Source: the human T2T-CHM13v2.0 reference genome, Homo sapiens. Taken from it: a stretch of 64,000 bases of DNA. Below, in pieces: positions 3,502 to 61,833 of this stretch; positions within the stretch are counted from its first letter, which is position 1; the number at the start of each line of letters is the position of its first letter. The position numbers were made by a program, and so were the translations under genes. The stretch is taken from assembly GCF_009914755.1 (NCBI RefSeq), contig NC_060945.1; one strand, 5' to 3'. The notes under the pieces were generated by a model. The model worked only from the letters and a program-made list of their open reading frames with translations, was not told where the DNA came from and made no database searches.

Positions 3502-4329
3502 AAGAGGCAGTTTCCAGGTCACGCAGCAAGCAGAGGATGGAACCCTGCTTCCTAAGTTTCATTTTAATGCAGTTTCAATTGTGTCCTGTGGTCTCATTTT
3601 CCCTCCCTTCATCGGCCCTCTTTCTTATTCTTCTCCTCCCCATTATCACCACCATCCTCATCACCACTAGATTGCTTGGGTAATAATCATGGTTAGTAGA
3701 CTTTTACTGGGAAATCCAAAGGGATTGAAATAATGAGTGAAAATATGGAAGGTTCTATTCAGTTTTCTGTGACAGAAATTGGAATGACAATGTTCGATGC
3801 TCCCTGGTGAACTTGATCTAATTTTGTTTATAACTTTCATAATTTAAAAAATGTTATAATTCAAGTTAGCTCTATATATAGAATTCTCATCTGTGAGTTT
3901 CTGCCATCTTAGAGATCTAGAACACAGACACAAATAGCATTAACATTAAAGAATACTTTCTGGCTAAGCCAAAGCCATCTTGGATTAATGGAAATGATAT
4001 GCCTATTTTAGATATAAAAGTGGTTCTCTGGCCTCTGGAAATACTCTAGTTAGAAAAGCAAACTACCTTTTAAAGACTAATATGATAGTTTCAATAATAA
4101 TTACACAACTATATAGTGAAGCATGCTTATGCTTACACAACTGGTAGTTATAATGTTGGAGACAATAAATTTGCAATATCAAAACTGGTACTAAAGTTAA
4201 ATAGATTAATATCTAATTTCAGGATGAAATAACGATAAATTTATCATCATATTATAAACTCTATCATTATAAACTTTATCATTCTATCTCAAGAAACTAT
4301 CCCAATGCCATATTAAAGTTTCTCTAAAA

Positions 4330-4690
4330 ATGGCCAGCCGAAATCCCTGACTCTTTTGCAACATTTTGAATTTACCAGGATTAAGGTAGATTTCTCCCTA
4401 TATTCCAGCAACTCAGCAACAGTGATTCCAGATCTCCACTTCCCTACGAAGGCAGTCCTGCTCTCTACCAGATTTCTATTAGATCTCTCATGGGCTTTGC
4501 CTCTACCAGTGGTGTGGGTTTCCACTGCTGCCTTCCCTGTTTGATCTGTTACATTCATTAGCTCTGTGAGTCTTGAATCTGGGGGTTCAGGTCTTAAGTT
4601 CCTGCTGCCCTAGCAACTGTATTTCCAGAAATTACCATCCATCTAGCTACTGGCCAGCATGTGGTTCTGACTTCCAGGAATTACTGTATT
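4330..4690 (+). pseudogene. Highly decayed KRTAP13-like pseudogene
   Basis: Blocks in family order: DFSLYSSN..DLHFPT (cf. GSSYPSN..DLCSPS), SLESGGSGLKFL (cf. KRTAP13-4 SLGNGSSGFRFL), and SCCPSNCISRNYHPSSYWPACGSDF from 4600 (cf. the family C-terminus). ATG at 4330; TATAAA at 4253. Confidence 0.7.
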
Positions 4691-6004
4691 CAGTTTCCCA
4701 GGAAGCTCATCATGAATCATTTATATGCAATTGATTTTACCAATTTTTATTTATTCTTGTCACTTTAGTGATTACAGATAACAACTTTGTTCCTCCCAAC
4801 CTTAACTTCTGTATTTTTCATTAGTCATGCCTCAGTAGCATTTTGTCACTTTTCAAAATAAGATTCATCTGGCTCTGTTCTTAGGGAATGCATGATGAAA
4901 AAATATTTTATTATATTTTTCAAGGAAAATGCATCCATTCATAGGCTACCATATAATGAGAAAATTTTAAAACAATTTTTTAAAATACAGTTCGTTTCTC
5001 TGAACTTACCATTTAGCAGGTTTAATCGATGTTAACCAAATAATTATTTAATTATAGTTGCTATTAAAGCTGTGAATAAGCAGCCTCAACATATAAGAAC
5101 ACTTAACGAAGAGATGTCACCTACTTAGAAGTCAGCAAAGGTTCCCAAAGAAAGTATCCTATCAGCTGAGTCTAGAGAGTGAGTAAAAATAGCTTGATTG
5201 GGGTGAGAAACTGGAATAAGCATATCCAATTAGAAGGTGCTTTGCACTAATTTGAATGAAAAGGATAAAAACCTATGATTAGTGATATCCAGTCATCAGA
5301 CTATCTGTATGTACTCATTCTACATTGCAAGTTCTGTCTCACATTTCTACATAAACCCTCTTTTACTGTACACCAACTAAATTTCACTTCTTCCCTAAAT
5401 ACAAAATATGCATTTTTTTCTCTCTGCTTTGGTCATTTTACTTTACCTTCTCATATTTCCCTTAGCTATTCTCATAGTTCTTGTGATTTTGATATTCAAG
5501 ATAGCTCCAACTTTTAGATATATGTTTAAAAGTTCTTCTGAAATTGGAGCTAAACTGAATTAGAATGAAATTTAAAGAGTGAGGTAGTCAGGATACGATG
5601 GTATATTGAATGTCGTGATCTTGAACAGGAGAAATTCAATTAATAAACTGCTGTATGTAAAGACCCCACTTTCCGAGCTGAGAGAGTTTGAAAATGGAGT
5701 TCTCAGGCTCGCTGGGGATGGCAGAGGAGGCGTGTTGTTGCAGATGCCTTCTAAGTTAGCTCAATTAATAATATCAATCATCTTTTACATGTCTCCCTGG
5801 TCAGATATCACTTGATACTGTAAACAATAGGCACTTAAAACAAAAAAGATACATATTTATTGTTATAAACAGAAACGAATGTAGCACACTACACACTCAT
5901 ACATACACGTGCAAATCAACTATACTGCACATTCCCAAAACATTTCTAGTCAACATTGAACTATTGGTCTTATAACGAAAAAGCAAAAAATAAAAATAAA
6001 AATA

Positions 6005-6565
6005 ACAGGAAATAAGTGGTAAAACATTCTAGTCACAGGTGCGACTGCTCGCATCGAAAATCCTAAGTAATCTATAAAATTACTATAGAAATATTGATTT
6101 TATTTGTCTATACAAATGAAAAGCATATGAAAAATTAAGTTTAAAATTAAGTTAAAATATATTGTAATAATATCAAAACATATCATTTGTGGAATAGATC
6201 TTGAATCGTATCATGGATCTATGAATTTAGGGATAATTTTTATTATCTCAAATTCACAGATCCAAAACATTCCAAACAAAAGTGCCAAAATTGCCAAAAA
6301 TTGAAAAATTGACTGAAATTTATAAAGTTTAACAGAGGAAGAATAGGCAACACCATCTTTAAAAGGAGAAATAAAATAGGAAGATGTATATCAAAATATT
6401 ATGGTACTGGAATTAAATATAGATAATTAAATTAGTGGAACAAAATAGAGTTATGCAACAGATCCACATGTGTGCTACCTATTTTTTACAAAGATGTGAA
6501 GTCAATTCGAATGTAAAAACATGTCTTTTCAACAGATGGTATTAGAGTCACTGATATGTGTAAAT
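6005..6565 (+). mobile_element. Old L1 (L1M-type) ORF2 fragment
   Basis: Decayed L1 ORF2-like A-rich sequence (e.g. tcttttcaacagatggt); appears to continue at about 17560. Confidence 0.55.
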
Positions 6566-61073: not shown

Positions 61074-61389
61074 CTTTTTGTTCTTTTTTTTTTTTTTTTT
61101 TTTTTTGAGACGGAGTCTTGCTCAGTCGCCAGGCTGGAGTGCAGTGGCGCGATCTCGCCTCACTGCAAGCTCCGCCTCCCGGGTTCACGCCATTCTCCTG
61201 CCTCAGCCTCCCGAGTAGCTGGGACTACAGGCGCCCGCCACCAAGCCCGGCTAATTTTGTTTTGTATTTTTAGTAGAGACGGGGTTTCACCATGTTAGCC
61301 AAGATGCTGCCGATCTCCTGACCTCGTGATCTGCCCGCCTCGGCCTCCCAAAGTGCTGGGATTACAGGCGTGAGTCACCGCACCCGGCC
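61074..61389 (-). mobile_element. AluY (young, CpG-rich)
   Basis: Most CpGs intact; long poly-T. Confidence 0.9.
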
Positions 61390-61559
61390 CTGTATGTTCT
61401 TAAATATTTCTAATCTGTCATTTATTTTAATGGGAATTGTTCTCAGTAAGGTCCCAAAGATTCTTAGCAAACTAGCAGTGTAGCATAACACACAAAGCAC
61501 GTGAGTCTTGGAAAACTGGGTCGTGAACATCTTAATTTGCAAGAGTTTCTACTTCAGTA

Positions 61560-61833
61560 GAAATGTCAGGCTTCACAGAACAAAGATTTTAGGCTTAGAA
61601 ATAATGAAAGTTTTCGAAGAGTTTTATTCCAATCATAAAATGGCTCTCAGTTGGTCTATAAGTGATACTTAAAGTAGAAACTCCCAGCCAACTTCAAGTG
61701 TTTGGGCTCCAGAATAATATGATGAGAAACCAGAAGCAGTCTTAGAACACAGCCAGGAGCTCAACTAGGTGATGAGGAAGACAGTGAGTGAATGGAAAGG
61801 TTCTGAAAATGAGTTTCCGAAGTGGTAAGAGAT
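61560..61833 (-). pseudogene. Decayed KRTAP13/15-like remnant
   Basis: ATC TCT TAC CAC TTC GGA AAC (cf. ATG TCT TAC AAC..GGA AAC); PNT* (cf. PNTC); tagaccaactgagagcca 14/18 identical to KRTAP15-1 gagacctactgtgagccc; PKIFVL*S (cf. PRTSILCS). Confidence 0.5.

What the first reader, a model, noticed from the sequence alone, without database searches (positions are those of the whole stretch)
4253..61833. A graveyard of decayed KRTAP13/PMG-family genes hidden in 'intergenic' DNA
Seen: at least four ~0.3-0.4 kb non-repeat islands (4330-4690 +, 19553-19935 -, 25860-26220 -, 61560-61833 -) keep family motifs in the correct order (MSY..GN, YxSN..YS, CQ..L...CQETCW, SLG.GS.GF, C-terminal CYxPxCGSxF), and two retain a TATA box at about the family spacing. 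Weaker candidates occur at 45.0, 47.3, 49.0, 52.4, 55.8 and 60.5 kb. The ORF track shows these only as nonsense fragments. Inference: the ancestral array here was much larger than the three genes plus one pseudogene and was mostly lost by birth-and-death evolution; some copies may be intact genes in other mammals. I do not recall these being annotated, but cannot check.
Basis: partly seen in the sequence, partly recalled or inferred. Interest (0 to 1): 0.8.

Follow-up and report, generated by a model that had tools for sequence, protein, structure and literature searches.

The report
Decayed KRTAP13-type gene relics, partly confirmed

Summary
Three of the four claimed islands are real relics of KRTAP13/15-type genes. 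The fourth island (61560-61833) is unsupported, as are 5 of the 6 'weaker' candidates.

A DNA profile of 7 living or annotated family members scores 36.6 bits at 4596-4715(+), 28.2 bits at 26077-25857(-) and 6.2 bits at 19679-19557(-). The best of 61 control sequences (60 shuffles plus the reversed window) scored 4.1 bits.

- **Islands 1 and 2** are an inverted paralogous pair (E 4e-36, about 60% identity). They are full-length relics running from promoter to 3' flank. Island 2 still has TATATAAA 87-89 nt before an ATG.
- **Island 3** is a 3'-half relic.
- **The 52.4 kb candidate** is borderline.

Protein-level tests (Pfam PMG, tblastn) do not detect any of them.

None appears in the RefSeq table supplied, an NCBI gene list, or the 2008 published inventory. 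GENCODE could not be checked.

These are ordinary unprocessed pseudogene remnants. They raise the window's count of family loci from 4 to 8 (possibly 9). This fits birth-and-death evolution of an array that has 13-14 members in rodents. Interest is modest.

The parts
63..843 (-). The last ~220 nt of a KRTAP13/15-type coding region lie at ~63-283. About 560 nt upstream is shared only with island 3.
   Evidence: 4-gene HMM 240-105, E 0.02. Single-sequence nhmmer 283-63 against KRTAP13-5P, E 1.2e-4, and 752-174 against island 3, E 9.3e-7. 112-842 against 25895-26611, E 5.3e-8. A joint isl0+isl3 3' HMM hits KRTAP13-5P at E 4.9e-10.
3575..5150 (+). Relic 'isl1', whole duplicated unit: upstream flank, degenerate promoter, coding-region equivalent and 3' flank.
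   Evidence: 4272-5150 against 19983-19070(-), E 1.2e-37. 3575-4046 against 21617-21160(-), E 2.3e-13. 3' coding part plus 3' flank against KRTAP13-1, E 7.2e-8.
4305..4680 (+). Coding-region equivalent of isl1 (~375 nt against 438-517 nt in living members). The ATG at 4305 is followed by TAA as codon 4. All three frames contain stops. It is shorter than the living members in the central Gly/Ser/Cys repeat part.
   Evidence: HMM hits 4596-4715 at 36.6 bits and 4585-4699 at 38.9 bits.
19070..21617 (-). Relic 'isl2', whole duplicated unit. It is the inverted paralogue of isl1, with about 1 kb of extra DNA in its upstream part.
   Evidence: Sister of isl1 in the tree with 100/99 support.
19564..19935 (-). 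Coding-region equivalent of isl2. ATG at 19935-19933. All three frames contain stops.
   Evidence: HMM hit 19679-19557, 6.2 bits, E 0.02.
20017..20024 (-). TATATAAA of isl2, at the family's TATA position.
   Evidence: It aligns with the TATA box of the KRTAP13 genes. It lies 87-89 nt before the ATG, against 82-88 nt in 6 living genes. A joint isl1+isl2 5' HMM hits the KRTAP13-2 promoter plus 5' coding region at 20.2 bits, E 1.1e-6. 0 of 100 shuffle sets exceeded 9.4 bits.
25857..26077 (-). Relic 'isl3': the last ~220 nt of a KRTAP13/15-type coding region. Its C-terminal reading and stop position resemble KRTAP15-1.
   Evidence: E 5.5e-13. 28.2 bits, E 4.3e-9. Against KRTAP13-3, E 6.8e-7, and against 13-5P, E 1.1e-5. 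Translation APTCFSFQNNQATCH* against HPTTFSSRNFQATCY*.
26078..26612 (-). Upstream part of isl3. It is shared with isl0 but has no recognisable similarity to any living family member. It is either a 5' half decayed beyond recognition or foreign DNA.
   Evidence: Searches show the homology with isl0. The isl0+isl3 5' HMM gave no hit better than E 9.4 against 12 gene units.
52435..52675 (-). Possible 5'-half relic, borderline. One frame reads CYSGNFI*VLEAPLASASLLQSSCPSHFLYSLPSTF*GSSQFHNDCHNSFC...
   Evidence: tblastn against KRTAP15-1 residues 5-92: 28% identity over 97 residues, 29.3 bits. That score was reached by 1 of 61 controls. Iterated DNA HMM 7.4 bits against a best shuffle of 6.1. No Pfam match.
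23257..23803 (-). KRTAP13-3, a living member (context).
   Evidence: Annotation supplied with the finding. Intact 172-residue frame. PMG 173.6 bits.
28098..28904 (+). KRTAP13-4, a living member (context).
   Evidence: Annotation.. PMG 155.8 bits.
34343..34853 (-). KRTAP13-5P, an annotated pseudogene (context). It is far better preserved than the relics.
   Evidence: PMG 148.1 bits with 1 stop. 74% nucleotide identity to KRTAP13-3.
38157..38751 (+). KRTAP15-1, a living member (context).
   Evidence: Annotation.. PMG 64.5 and 45.9 bits.

Best explanation
The islands at ~4.3-4.7 kb(+), ~19.6-19.9 kb(-) and ~25.86-26.08 kb(-), and a further one at ~0.06-0.84 kb(-), are very old unprocessed pseudogene remnants. 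'Unprocessed' means they were made by DNA duplication and not by retrocopying. They come from single-exon KRTAP13/15-type (PMG family) genes.

**How they arose.** Segmental duplication inside the 21q22.11 array copied whole gene units with their promoters and flanks. Some copies were disabled and then drifted neutrally. They now sit at about 50-60% nucleotide identity, which is too low for protein-level detection.

**Two ancient duplicate pairs survive.**
- isl1/isl2 is an inverted pair. Both members are full-length relics.
- isl0/isl3 are in the same orientation. Only their 3' halves are recognisable.

**Pair structure.** isl0(-) and isl1(+) lie head-to-head about 3.7 kb apart, like the living pairs 13-3/13-4 and 13-5P/15-1. 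They look like a dead pair unit.

**Function.** They most likely have none today.

**What is shown:** the homology, the broken frames, the arrangement, and that the coding-like part is no better conserved than the flank.

**What is inferred:** the duplication mechanism, the age (roughly 100 Myr or more) and the lack of function.
For: **Homology to the family.**
- DNA HMM scores are far above the controls. isl1 scores 36.6 and 38.9 bits and isl3 28.2 bits, against a maximum of 4.1 bits in 61 controls.
- An independent first HMM gave E 1e-9 and 5.5e-13.

**Paralogous pairs.**
- isl1 against isl2: E 3.9e-36. The match extends to 3575-5150 against 21617-19070.
- isl0 against isl3: E 9.3e-7 and 5.3e-8. 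Their joint 3' HMM hits KRTAP13-5P at E 4.9e-10, 13-3 at 2.2e-5 and 15-1 at 5.1e-5.

**Promoter and 5' coding homology.** The joint isl1+isl2 5' HMM hits KRTAP13-2 at 20.2 bits. 0 of 100 shuffle sets exceeded 9.4 bits.

**Family landmarks in family order**:
- TATA box;
- ATG;
- TAT(T/C)CAGCAAC, the YPSN codons;
- the C-terminal ...TGTGGTTCTGACTTC block.

**Broken frames.** All three frames of each island contain stops.

**Tree.** The relics group with KRTAP13/15/23, not with 24/25/26 (93/93). isl1 and isl2 are sisters (100/99).

**No sign of constraint.** The isl1/isl2 coding-like part is 57% identical and the 3' flank 62%.

**Not a repeat family.**
- Each relic is single-copy in the genome at BLAST-like sensitivity.
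- Relic queries found no other copies in the window.

**Spacing of head-to-head pairs.**
- Human: ATG 4305, with the isl0 coding start estimated at ~0.5-0.6 kb. Compare 23789/28154 and 34847/38210.
- Mouse: pairs lie 3.0-3.75 kb apart.
Against: **Protein-level tests fail.**
- Pfam found no family in 0 of 13 read-through translations.
- 0 of 46 genome-wide PMG matches lie in the islands.
- tblastn E values are 0.19-5.

**Two relics rest on indirect evidence.**
- isl2 matches the family HMM only at E 0.02-0.085. It depends largely on transitivity through isl1 and on the joint 5' HMM.
- isl0 matches directly only at E 0.02 and E 1.9. It depends on isl3 and on the KRTAP13-5P match.

**Unexplained sequence.** The ~500 nt upstream of isl0/isl3 has no family similarity. 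It could be foreign, for example an ancient transposon.

**Checks I could not run.**
- No RepeatMasker or Dfam run was possible.
- There is no cross-species evidence.

**Limits of the data.**
- The tree is unresolved inside the KRTAP13/15 clade.
- Global identity of isl0/isl3 is only 50.6%, against 42.9 +/- 2.3% (maximum 51.8%) for 30 unrelated pairs.
Confidence: 0.85

Rival explanations
1. Chance or compositional resemblance. The islands are ordinary AT-rich intergenic DNA in which a motif-hunting reader, and a profile rich in Ser/Cys/Gly codons, find spurious matches.
For: - Protein-level searches are at noise level.
- Island 4 and 5 of the 6 weaker candidates are of this kind.
- nhmmer reports sizeable bias terms of 8-10 bits for some hits.
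Against: - 0 of 61 controls exceeded 4.1 bits, against 36.6 and 28.2 bits for the real hits.
- 0 of 100 shuffle sets exceeded 9.4 bits, against 20.2 bits.
- isl1/isl2 similarity at E 4e-36 runs collinear with the gene layout.
Confidence: 0.03
2. A much larger graveyard. Ten or more decayed PMG genes are spread over 4-62 kb, most of them below the sensitivity of my searches.
For: - The 52.4 kb candidate is borderline positive by both DNA and protein tests.
- A 43-nt match at 46253-46211 scores 6.2 bits, against a best shuffle of 6.1.
- Rodents carry 13-14 KRTAP13-type loci.
- The relics already found sit at the detection limit, so older ones would be invisible.
Against: - Three HMMs, one of them iterated with the relics, report nothing at island 4 or at 47.3, 49.0 and 55.8 kb, and negative scores at 45.0 and 60.5 kb.
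- A KRTAP19-1 query finds no relic in the window either.
- 40-64 kb lies beyond KRTAP15-1, the last PMG-type gene of the array.
Confidence: 0.1
3. The relics are kept for a present function. They might be exapted regulatory DNA of the keratin-associated cluster, or part of the lncRNA LOC105372772. They would then not be neutral junk.
For: - isl2 keeps an intact TATATAAA at the family spacing.
- The relics are still recognisable after a long time.
- They lie inside the span of an annotated lncRNA, according to the annotation supplied.
Against: - The coding-like part of isl1/isl2 is no better conserved than the flank (57% against 62%).
- The two lncRNA exons in the window (42547-42612 and 43554-43616) do not overlap any relic.
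- RefSeq lists no functional element in the window.
Confidence: 0.05

Closest known systems
KRTAP13-5P and KRTAP13-6P, the two annotated KRTAP13 pseudogenes of 21q22.11
   Same: - Same cluster and same single-exon gene type.
- Unprocessed, with broken frames.
- KRTAP13-6P is likewise annotated only as a small 101-bp fragment.
   Different: - The annotated pair are far younger or better preserved. 13-5P scores 148 bits on Pfam PMG and is 74% identical to KRTAP13-3. 13-6P scores 95 and 72 bits on the DNA HMM.
- The relics are 50-60% identical, invisible to Pfam, and absent from the lists I could check.
KRTAP15-1
   Same: isl3 shares the C-terminal reading and the position of the stop...QATCH* against ...QATCY*. 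It also shares the block CAGGCAACTTGTYACTAAC.
   Different: - Over the whole block, isl3 scores higher against KRTAP13-3 and 13-5P than against 15-1.
- The tree does not resolve its position.
Rodent Krtap13 array, as listed in Wu et al. 2008 Supplement 1
   Same: - Alternating (-,+) head-to-head pairs 3.0-3.75 kb apart.
- 14 loci in mouse and 13 in rat.
- With the relics, the human array reaches 13 loci of this clade and shows the same pair pattern (isl0/isl1).
   Different: - Most rodent members are intact (10 of 14 in mouse, 10 of 13 in rat).
- Orthology to the human relics was not tested.
Birth-and-death evolution of tandem gene families (recalled as a general model; named for KRTAPs in Wu et al. 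2008)
   Same: Duplication, followed by loss of some copies that remain as decaying pseudogenes among living paralogues.
   Different: Nothing departs from the model. This is an instance of it.

Membership tests
PMG / KRTAP13-15 protein family (Pfam PF05287) | Translated sequence matches the PMG profile at or above the 29-bit gathering score. | tested here: not met
   - Whole-genome six-frame scan: 46 matches, none in the islands.
- 13 read-through translations (stops read as X) of the 4 islands and the 52.4 kb candidate: 0 families at E up to 10.
KRTAP13/15-type gene relic (nucleotide homology) | Significant nucleotide similarity to family genes, above shuffled and reversed controls. | tested here: met
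   - isl1: 36.6 and 38.9 bits.
- isl3: 28.2 bits.
- isl2: 6.2 bits directly, and E 4e-36 to isl1.
- Controls: maximum 4.1 bits in 61.
- Island 4: not met.
KRTAP13/15-type gene relic (nucleotide homology) | Collinear gene layout: TATA box, about 85 nt, ATG, 5' motifs, C-terminal block, 3' flank. | tested here: met
   - Met for isl1 and isl2.
- For isl0 and isl3 only the 3' coding block is recognisable.
Pseudogene | Reading frame broken by stops or frameshifts. | tested here: met
   - All three frames of every island contain stops.
- In isl1 the ATG is followed by TAA at codon 4.
Unprocessed (duplicated) as opposed to processed pseudogene | Homology extends into the promoter and into non-transcribed flanks. 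| tested here: met
   - The isl1/isl2 5' HMM hits the KRTAP13-2 promoter plus 5' coding region.
- isl1/isl2 homology covers 3575-5150 against 21617-19070.
- Absence of a poly(A) tail was not examined.
KRTAP13/15/23 clade as opposed to KRTAP24-27 clade | Groups with KRTAP13/15/23 in a tree rooted on KRTAP24/25/26. | tested here: met
   The split has 93/93 support on 162 columns. Relationships inside the clade are unresolved. No relic query hit KRTAP24-27.
Relic of a gene still intact in other mammals | An orthologous intact frame at the syntenic position in another species. | not testable with these tools
   No other mammalian genome is held. Only gene tables from Wu et al. 2008 were seen.

The most novel reading that the evidence does not exclude
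The relics are the human remains of particular eutherian KRTAP13-type genes that are still intact in other mammals. In particular, isl0(-)/isl1(+) would be a whole head-to-head gene pair lost on the human lineage. The ancestral eutherian array would then have held 13 or more PMG-type genes built from repeated (-,+) pair units, and the human and hominoid repertoire of 8 loci would be a reduced remnant of it.
Probability: 0.4. Interest if true: 0.35.

Novelty: new member of a known kind. Interest (0 to 1): 0.3.

Why it matters
**What it adds.** It adds four, possibly five, unlisted dead members to a well-studied human hair-protein gene cluster. The published repertoire is 8 KRTAP13-type loci. 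That figure undercounts the history of the array by at least 5 when the relic 15 kb upstream of the window is included.

**Use for evolutionary work.** The relics give positional markers for reconstructing the ancestral array and its head-to-head pair units. That could sharpen comparisons of gene loss between sparsely haired and fully furred mammals.

**A practical lesson.** Protein-profile pseudogene finders miss remnants of this age, while nucleotide profiles built from local paralogues find them.

**Limits.** It does not change any view of how such families evolve, and no function is implied.

Tried and rejected
**Protein-level tests.**
- tblastn with the three living proteins gave only noise-level hits at the islands (E 0.19-5).
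- The Pfam PMG scan of the whole genome and of read-through translations found nothing at the islands.
- One search failed because the translations contained stops. I repeated it with stops read as X.

**Other gene types.** A KRTAP19-1 unit used as a query, to look for high-glycine-tyrosine relics in 40-64 kb, matched only the promoters and 5' regions of the known KRTAP13/15 genes.

**Tile ranking.** Ranking 1-kb tiles for the weaker candidates was barely informative, because nhmmer reports nothing for most tiles.

**5' part of isl0/isl3.** A joint HMM of the upstream parts against 12 gene units gave no hit better than E 9.4.

**Tree.** The maximum-likelihood tree on 162 columns left the order inside the KRTAP13/15 clade unresolved (8 of 13 inner branches open). 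I could not assign relics to living subfamilies or test the pair-unit model.

**Whole-genome DNA searches.** Searches with isl1 and isl3 found only the queries themselves. They did not even find isl2 for isl1. They therefore exclude young repeats only.

**Considered and dropped.**
- Retrocopy origin, because promoter and flank homology argues against it.
- Membership of the lncRNA exons, because there is no overlap.

**Not attempted.** Searching the large protein databases with relic peptides. Candidates there must share exact 5-residue words with the query, and decayed 50-residue fragments made a useful answer unlikely.
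Full report
**What was claimed.**
- Four 0.3-0.4 kb islands keep KRTAP13/PMG motifs in order: 4330-4690 +, 19553-19935 -, 25860-26220 - and 61560-61833 -.
- Two of them keep a TATA box.
- Six weaker candidates lie at 45.0, 47.3, 49.0, 52.4, 55.8 and 60.5 kb.
- Together they would form a graveyard of decayed family members.

**Baseline.** The three annotated genes translate as intact PMG-type proteins.

tblastn with those proteins finds the three genes and KRTAP13-5P strongly. 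It also finds a 22-residue inverted fragment at 23007-23072. At the claimed islands it finds only noise-level hits (E 0.19-5). The one exception elsewhere is 52675-52400(-), at 29.3 bits.

The window lies in a held human assembly. A six-frame scan of the whole genome with Pfam PMG (PF05287) listed 46 matches. These include every annotated PMG-type gene of chr21. None lies in the islands. Thirteen read-through translations were also tested, with stops read as X: three frames of each island and one frame of the 52.4 kb candidate. They matched 0 Pfam families at E up to 10.

**Nucleotide profiles tell a different story.**

*First HMM.* A profile of the four annotated units in the window gave these extra hits:
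- 26077-25860(-), E 5.5e-13
- 4429-4690(+), E 1e-9
- 23005-23075(+), E 8.6e-15
- 240-105(-), E 0.02
- 19679-19556(-), E 0.085

All of them map to the 3' half of the coding region.

*Second HMMs.* I cut the other family members from the genome and built two more profiles. One has 7 members (KRTAP13-1 to -4, 13-5P, the 23-1 locus and 15-1). The other has 12 members. I searched the window with the annotated genes masked.
- 7-member profile: 4596-4715 at 36.6 bits (E 1.3e-11), 26077-25857 at 28.2 bits (E 4.3e-9), and 19679-19557 at 6.2 bits (E 0.02).
- 12-member profile: 4585-4699 at 38.9 bits. It did not find island 3.

*Control.* In 60 block-wise dinucleotide shuffles plus the reversed sequence, the best score was 4.1 bits.

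Islands 1 and 3 are therefore secure. Island 2 is marginal on this test alone.

**The relics form two ancient paralogous pairs.**

*isl1 and isl2.* With island 1 as the query, island 2 is found at E 3.9e-36 over ~800 nt in inverted orientation. With longer queries the homology runs 4272-5150 against 19983-19070, and 3575-4046 against 21617-21160. The duplicated unit was therefore at least 1.6 kb.

It matches 752-174(-) at E 9.3e-7 and 112-842 at E 5.3e-8. That relic in turn matches KRTAP13-5P at E 1.2e-4. A joint HMM of the 3' parts of this pair hits KRTAP13-5P (E 4.9e-10), 13-3 (2.2e-5) and 15-1 (5.1e-5).

*Not a repeat family.* Queries with these relics find no other copies in the window. 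Whole-genome DNA searches return only the queries themselves. The relics are therefore not members of a young repeat family. Ancient transposons cannot be excluded without Dfam.

**Anatomy of isl1 and isl2.** A MAFFT alignment with eight family units shows both relics collinear with the whole gene.
- isl2 keeps TATATAAA at 20024-20017. An ATG follows at 19935-19933, 87-89 nt downstream. The spacing is 82-88 nt in six living genes.
- isl1 keeps an ATG at 4305, followed by TAA as its fourth codon. Its TATA equivalent is degenerate.
- Both keep the YPSN codons and the C-terminal block (...SSYWPACGSDFQ in isl1).
- Both are about 375 nt long where living members have 438-517 nt. They are shorter in the central repeat part.
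- A joint HMM of their 5' parts, which excludes the well-conserved C-terminal block, hits the promoter plus 5' coding region of KRTAP13-2. It scores 20.2 bits (E 1.1e-6). 0 of 100 shuffle sets exceeded 9.4 bits.

isl1 and isl2 are thus full-length, unprocessed relics.

**Anatomy of isl0 and isl3.** Only the last ~220 nt of coding sequence is recognisable. Their shared ~500 nt upstream matches no family member. Either the 5' half has decayed beyond recognition, or their common ancestor was already truncated when it was duplicated.

The last residues of isl3 read APTCFSFQNNQATCH*. KRTAP15-1 ends HPTTFSSRNFQATCY*, with the stop in the same place.

**Age and constraint.**
- isl1/isl2 are about 60% identical (K2P ~0.55-0.6).
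- isl0/isl3 are about 51% identical in global alignment. Thirty unrelated pairs averaged 42.9 +/- 2.3%, with a maximum of 51.8%.
- The 5' flanks of KRTAP13-3/13-4 are 87% identical (K2P 0.15).

So the isl1/isl2 split is roughly four times as deep as the 13-3/13-4 flank divergence. At a mammalian neutral rate of about 2.2e-9 per site per year, a value I recall and did not compute, the split is of the order of 100 Myr or more. This is a rough inference.

The coding-like part of isl1/isl2 is 57% identical and their 3' flank 62%. There is no sign of purifying selection since they split.

In a tree of the 3' block (162 columns), all relics fall with KRTAP13/15/23 against KRTAP24/25/26 (93/93). isl1 and isl2 are sisters (100/99) on a long stem. 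The rest is unresolved.

**What is not there.**
- *Island 4.* It gives no alignment with any of three profiles, even at very permissive thresholds. Used as a query it finds no family gene. Its flank at 61200-61425 matches many copies in the window and is Alu-like.
- *Weaker candidates.* 47.3, 49.0 and 55.8 kb give nothing. 60.5 kb scores -7.8 bits and 45.0 kb -2.2 bits.
- *The 52.4 kb candidate.* It is borderline. One frame reads like the N-terminal half of the family with three stops: CYSGNF...PSHFLYS.PST..SS...C. It is 28% identical to KRTAP15-1 over 97 residues. Its 29.3 bits were reached by 1 of 61 controls. An HMM iterated with the relics gives 7.4 bits against a best shuffle of 6.1.
- *Other hits.* A 43-nt hit at 46253-46211 (6.2 bits) is at the level of the best shuffle.
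- *Other gene types.* A KRTAP19-1 query finds no high-glycine-tyrosine relic in the window.

**Context in the array.** Scanning 232 kb around the window shows further unlisted relics outside it.
- One lies between KRTAP13-2 and 13-1, at window -15.2 to -15.5 kb (E 1.8e-7).
- Three lie in the KRTAP24-27 part, at -72.5 kb, -95 kb and -104 kb.

Including the relics, the order in and near the window is: 13-2(-), relic(-), 13-1(+), isl0(-), isl1(+), isl2(-), 13-3(-), isl3(-), 13-4(+), 13-5P(-), 15-1(+).

isl0 and isl1 lie head-to-head about 3.7 kb apart. The living pairs are similar: 13-3/13-4 at 4.4 kb between ATGs and 13-5P/15-1 at 3.4 kb.

**Literature.**

*Wu et al. 2008 (PMC2528016).* I saw passages, the human sheet of Supplement 1, and the KRTAP13 rows of the other sheets.
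- For human it lists 8 KRTAP13-type loci. There is nothing between 13-1 and 13-3 or between 13-3 and 13-4.
- Mouse has 14 loci (10 intact), mostly in alternating (-,+) pairs 3.0-3.75 kb apart.
- Rat has 13, dog 9 and macaque 9.

*Khan et al. 2014 (PMC4180150).* I saw passages, section 6 and Table 1 rows. KRTAP13 totals, with pseudogenes in brackets:
- gorilla 4(2)
- orangutan 8(4)
- horse 10(2)
- bat 12(3)
- elephant 11(5)
- pig 14(10)
- sloth 16(13)

*NCBI gene list.* A list for 21q22.11 in a case report (PMC12779367, one passage) names only KRTAP13-5P and -6P as pseudogenes of this subfamily.

*Searches for further names.* A full-text search for further pseudogene names (KRTAP13-7P, KRTAP15-2P, KRTAP13P) found none. 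Searches were the other two searches.

*Not consulted.* Rogers et al. 2002 was not read. It is cited in Wu's table as the source of the names. GENCODE could not be consulted.

**Verdict.** It is wrong for the fourth island and for most of the weaker sites.

The interpretation (birth-and-death decay of a once larger array) is the natural one and is supported, but on a smaller scale. There are 4 secure relics and 1 doubtful one in the window, not ten or more.

These are new members of a well-known kind, namely ancient unprocessed pseudogene remnants in a tandem family. Interest is modest.

Noticed in passing
window 23005-23074 (+) and 23353-23422: A 70-nt piece of the KRTAP13-3 coding region is repeated in inverted orientation, 96% complementary, 278 nt away. 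The copy lies about 180 nt beyond the annotated 3' end of the transcript. This is a recent local inverted duplication and not an old relic.
   Followed up: partly
outside the window: chr21:28752512-28752777 (-), window -15.2 to -15.5 kb: An unlisted 3'-half relic of a KRTAP13-type gene lies between KRTAP13-2 and KRTAP13-1 (DNA HMM E 1.8e-7; best single matches KRTAP13-1 and 13-2).
   Followed up: partly
outside the window: chr21:28695054-28695481 (-), 28672676-28673293 (-), 28663197-28663805 (-): Three relics of the KRTAP24-27 type lie between KRTAP25-1 and KRTAP27-1. None is in the gene table of Wu et al. 2008. Two of them also match Pfam PMG with stops inside.
   Followed up: partly
outside the window: chr21:28722311-28722898 (-), KRTAP13-6P: The family-like sequence at KRTAP13-6P spans about 590 nt, including the promoter and both halves of the coding region. 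The annotation covers 101 nt.
   Followed up: no
L008, chr21:28713822-28714624 (-), KRTAP23-1 locus: The KRTAP23-1 locus is a nearly full-length KRTAP13-type gene. A frameshift after about 40 residues leaves the rest of a complete PMG reading in another frame. The short annotated protein is the N-terminal remnant. Wu et al. 2008 list an intact 528-nt counterpart in macaque.
   Followed up: no
outside the window: chr21:28834673-28834791 (-), window 66.7 kb: A promoter/5'-leader-like match to the family HMM (E 7.4e-6) has no recognisable coding part behind it. A similar match sits at the KRTAP19-1 promoter, so KRTAP13 and KRTAP19 genes share promoter and leader similarity.
   Followed up: partly
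window 25895-25925 and 38600-38626: isl3 and KRTAP15-1 alone share the block CAGGCAACTTGTYACTAAC, including the KRTAP15-1 stop codon. This hints that isl3 is a KRTAP15-like paralogue.
   Followed up: partly
window 1857-2158, 18680-18981, 61200-61425 and many others: The window carries many copies of one ~300-nt, Alu-like repeat. These account for most of the strong self-matches in the window.
   Followed up: no
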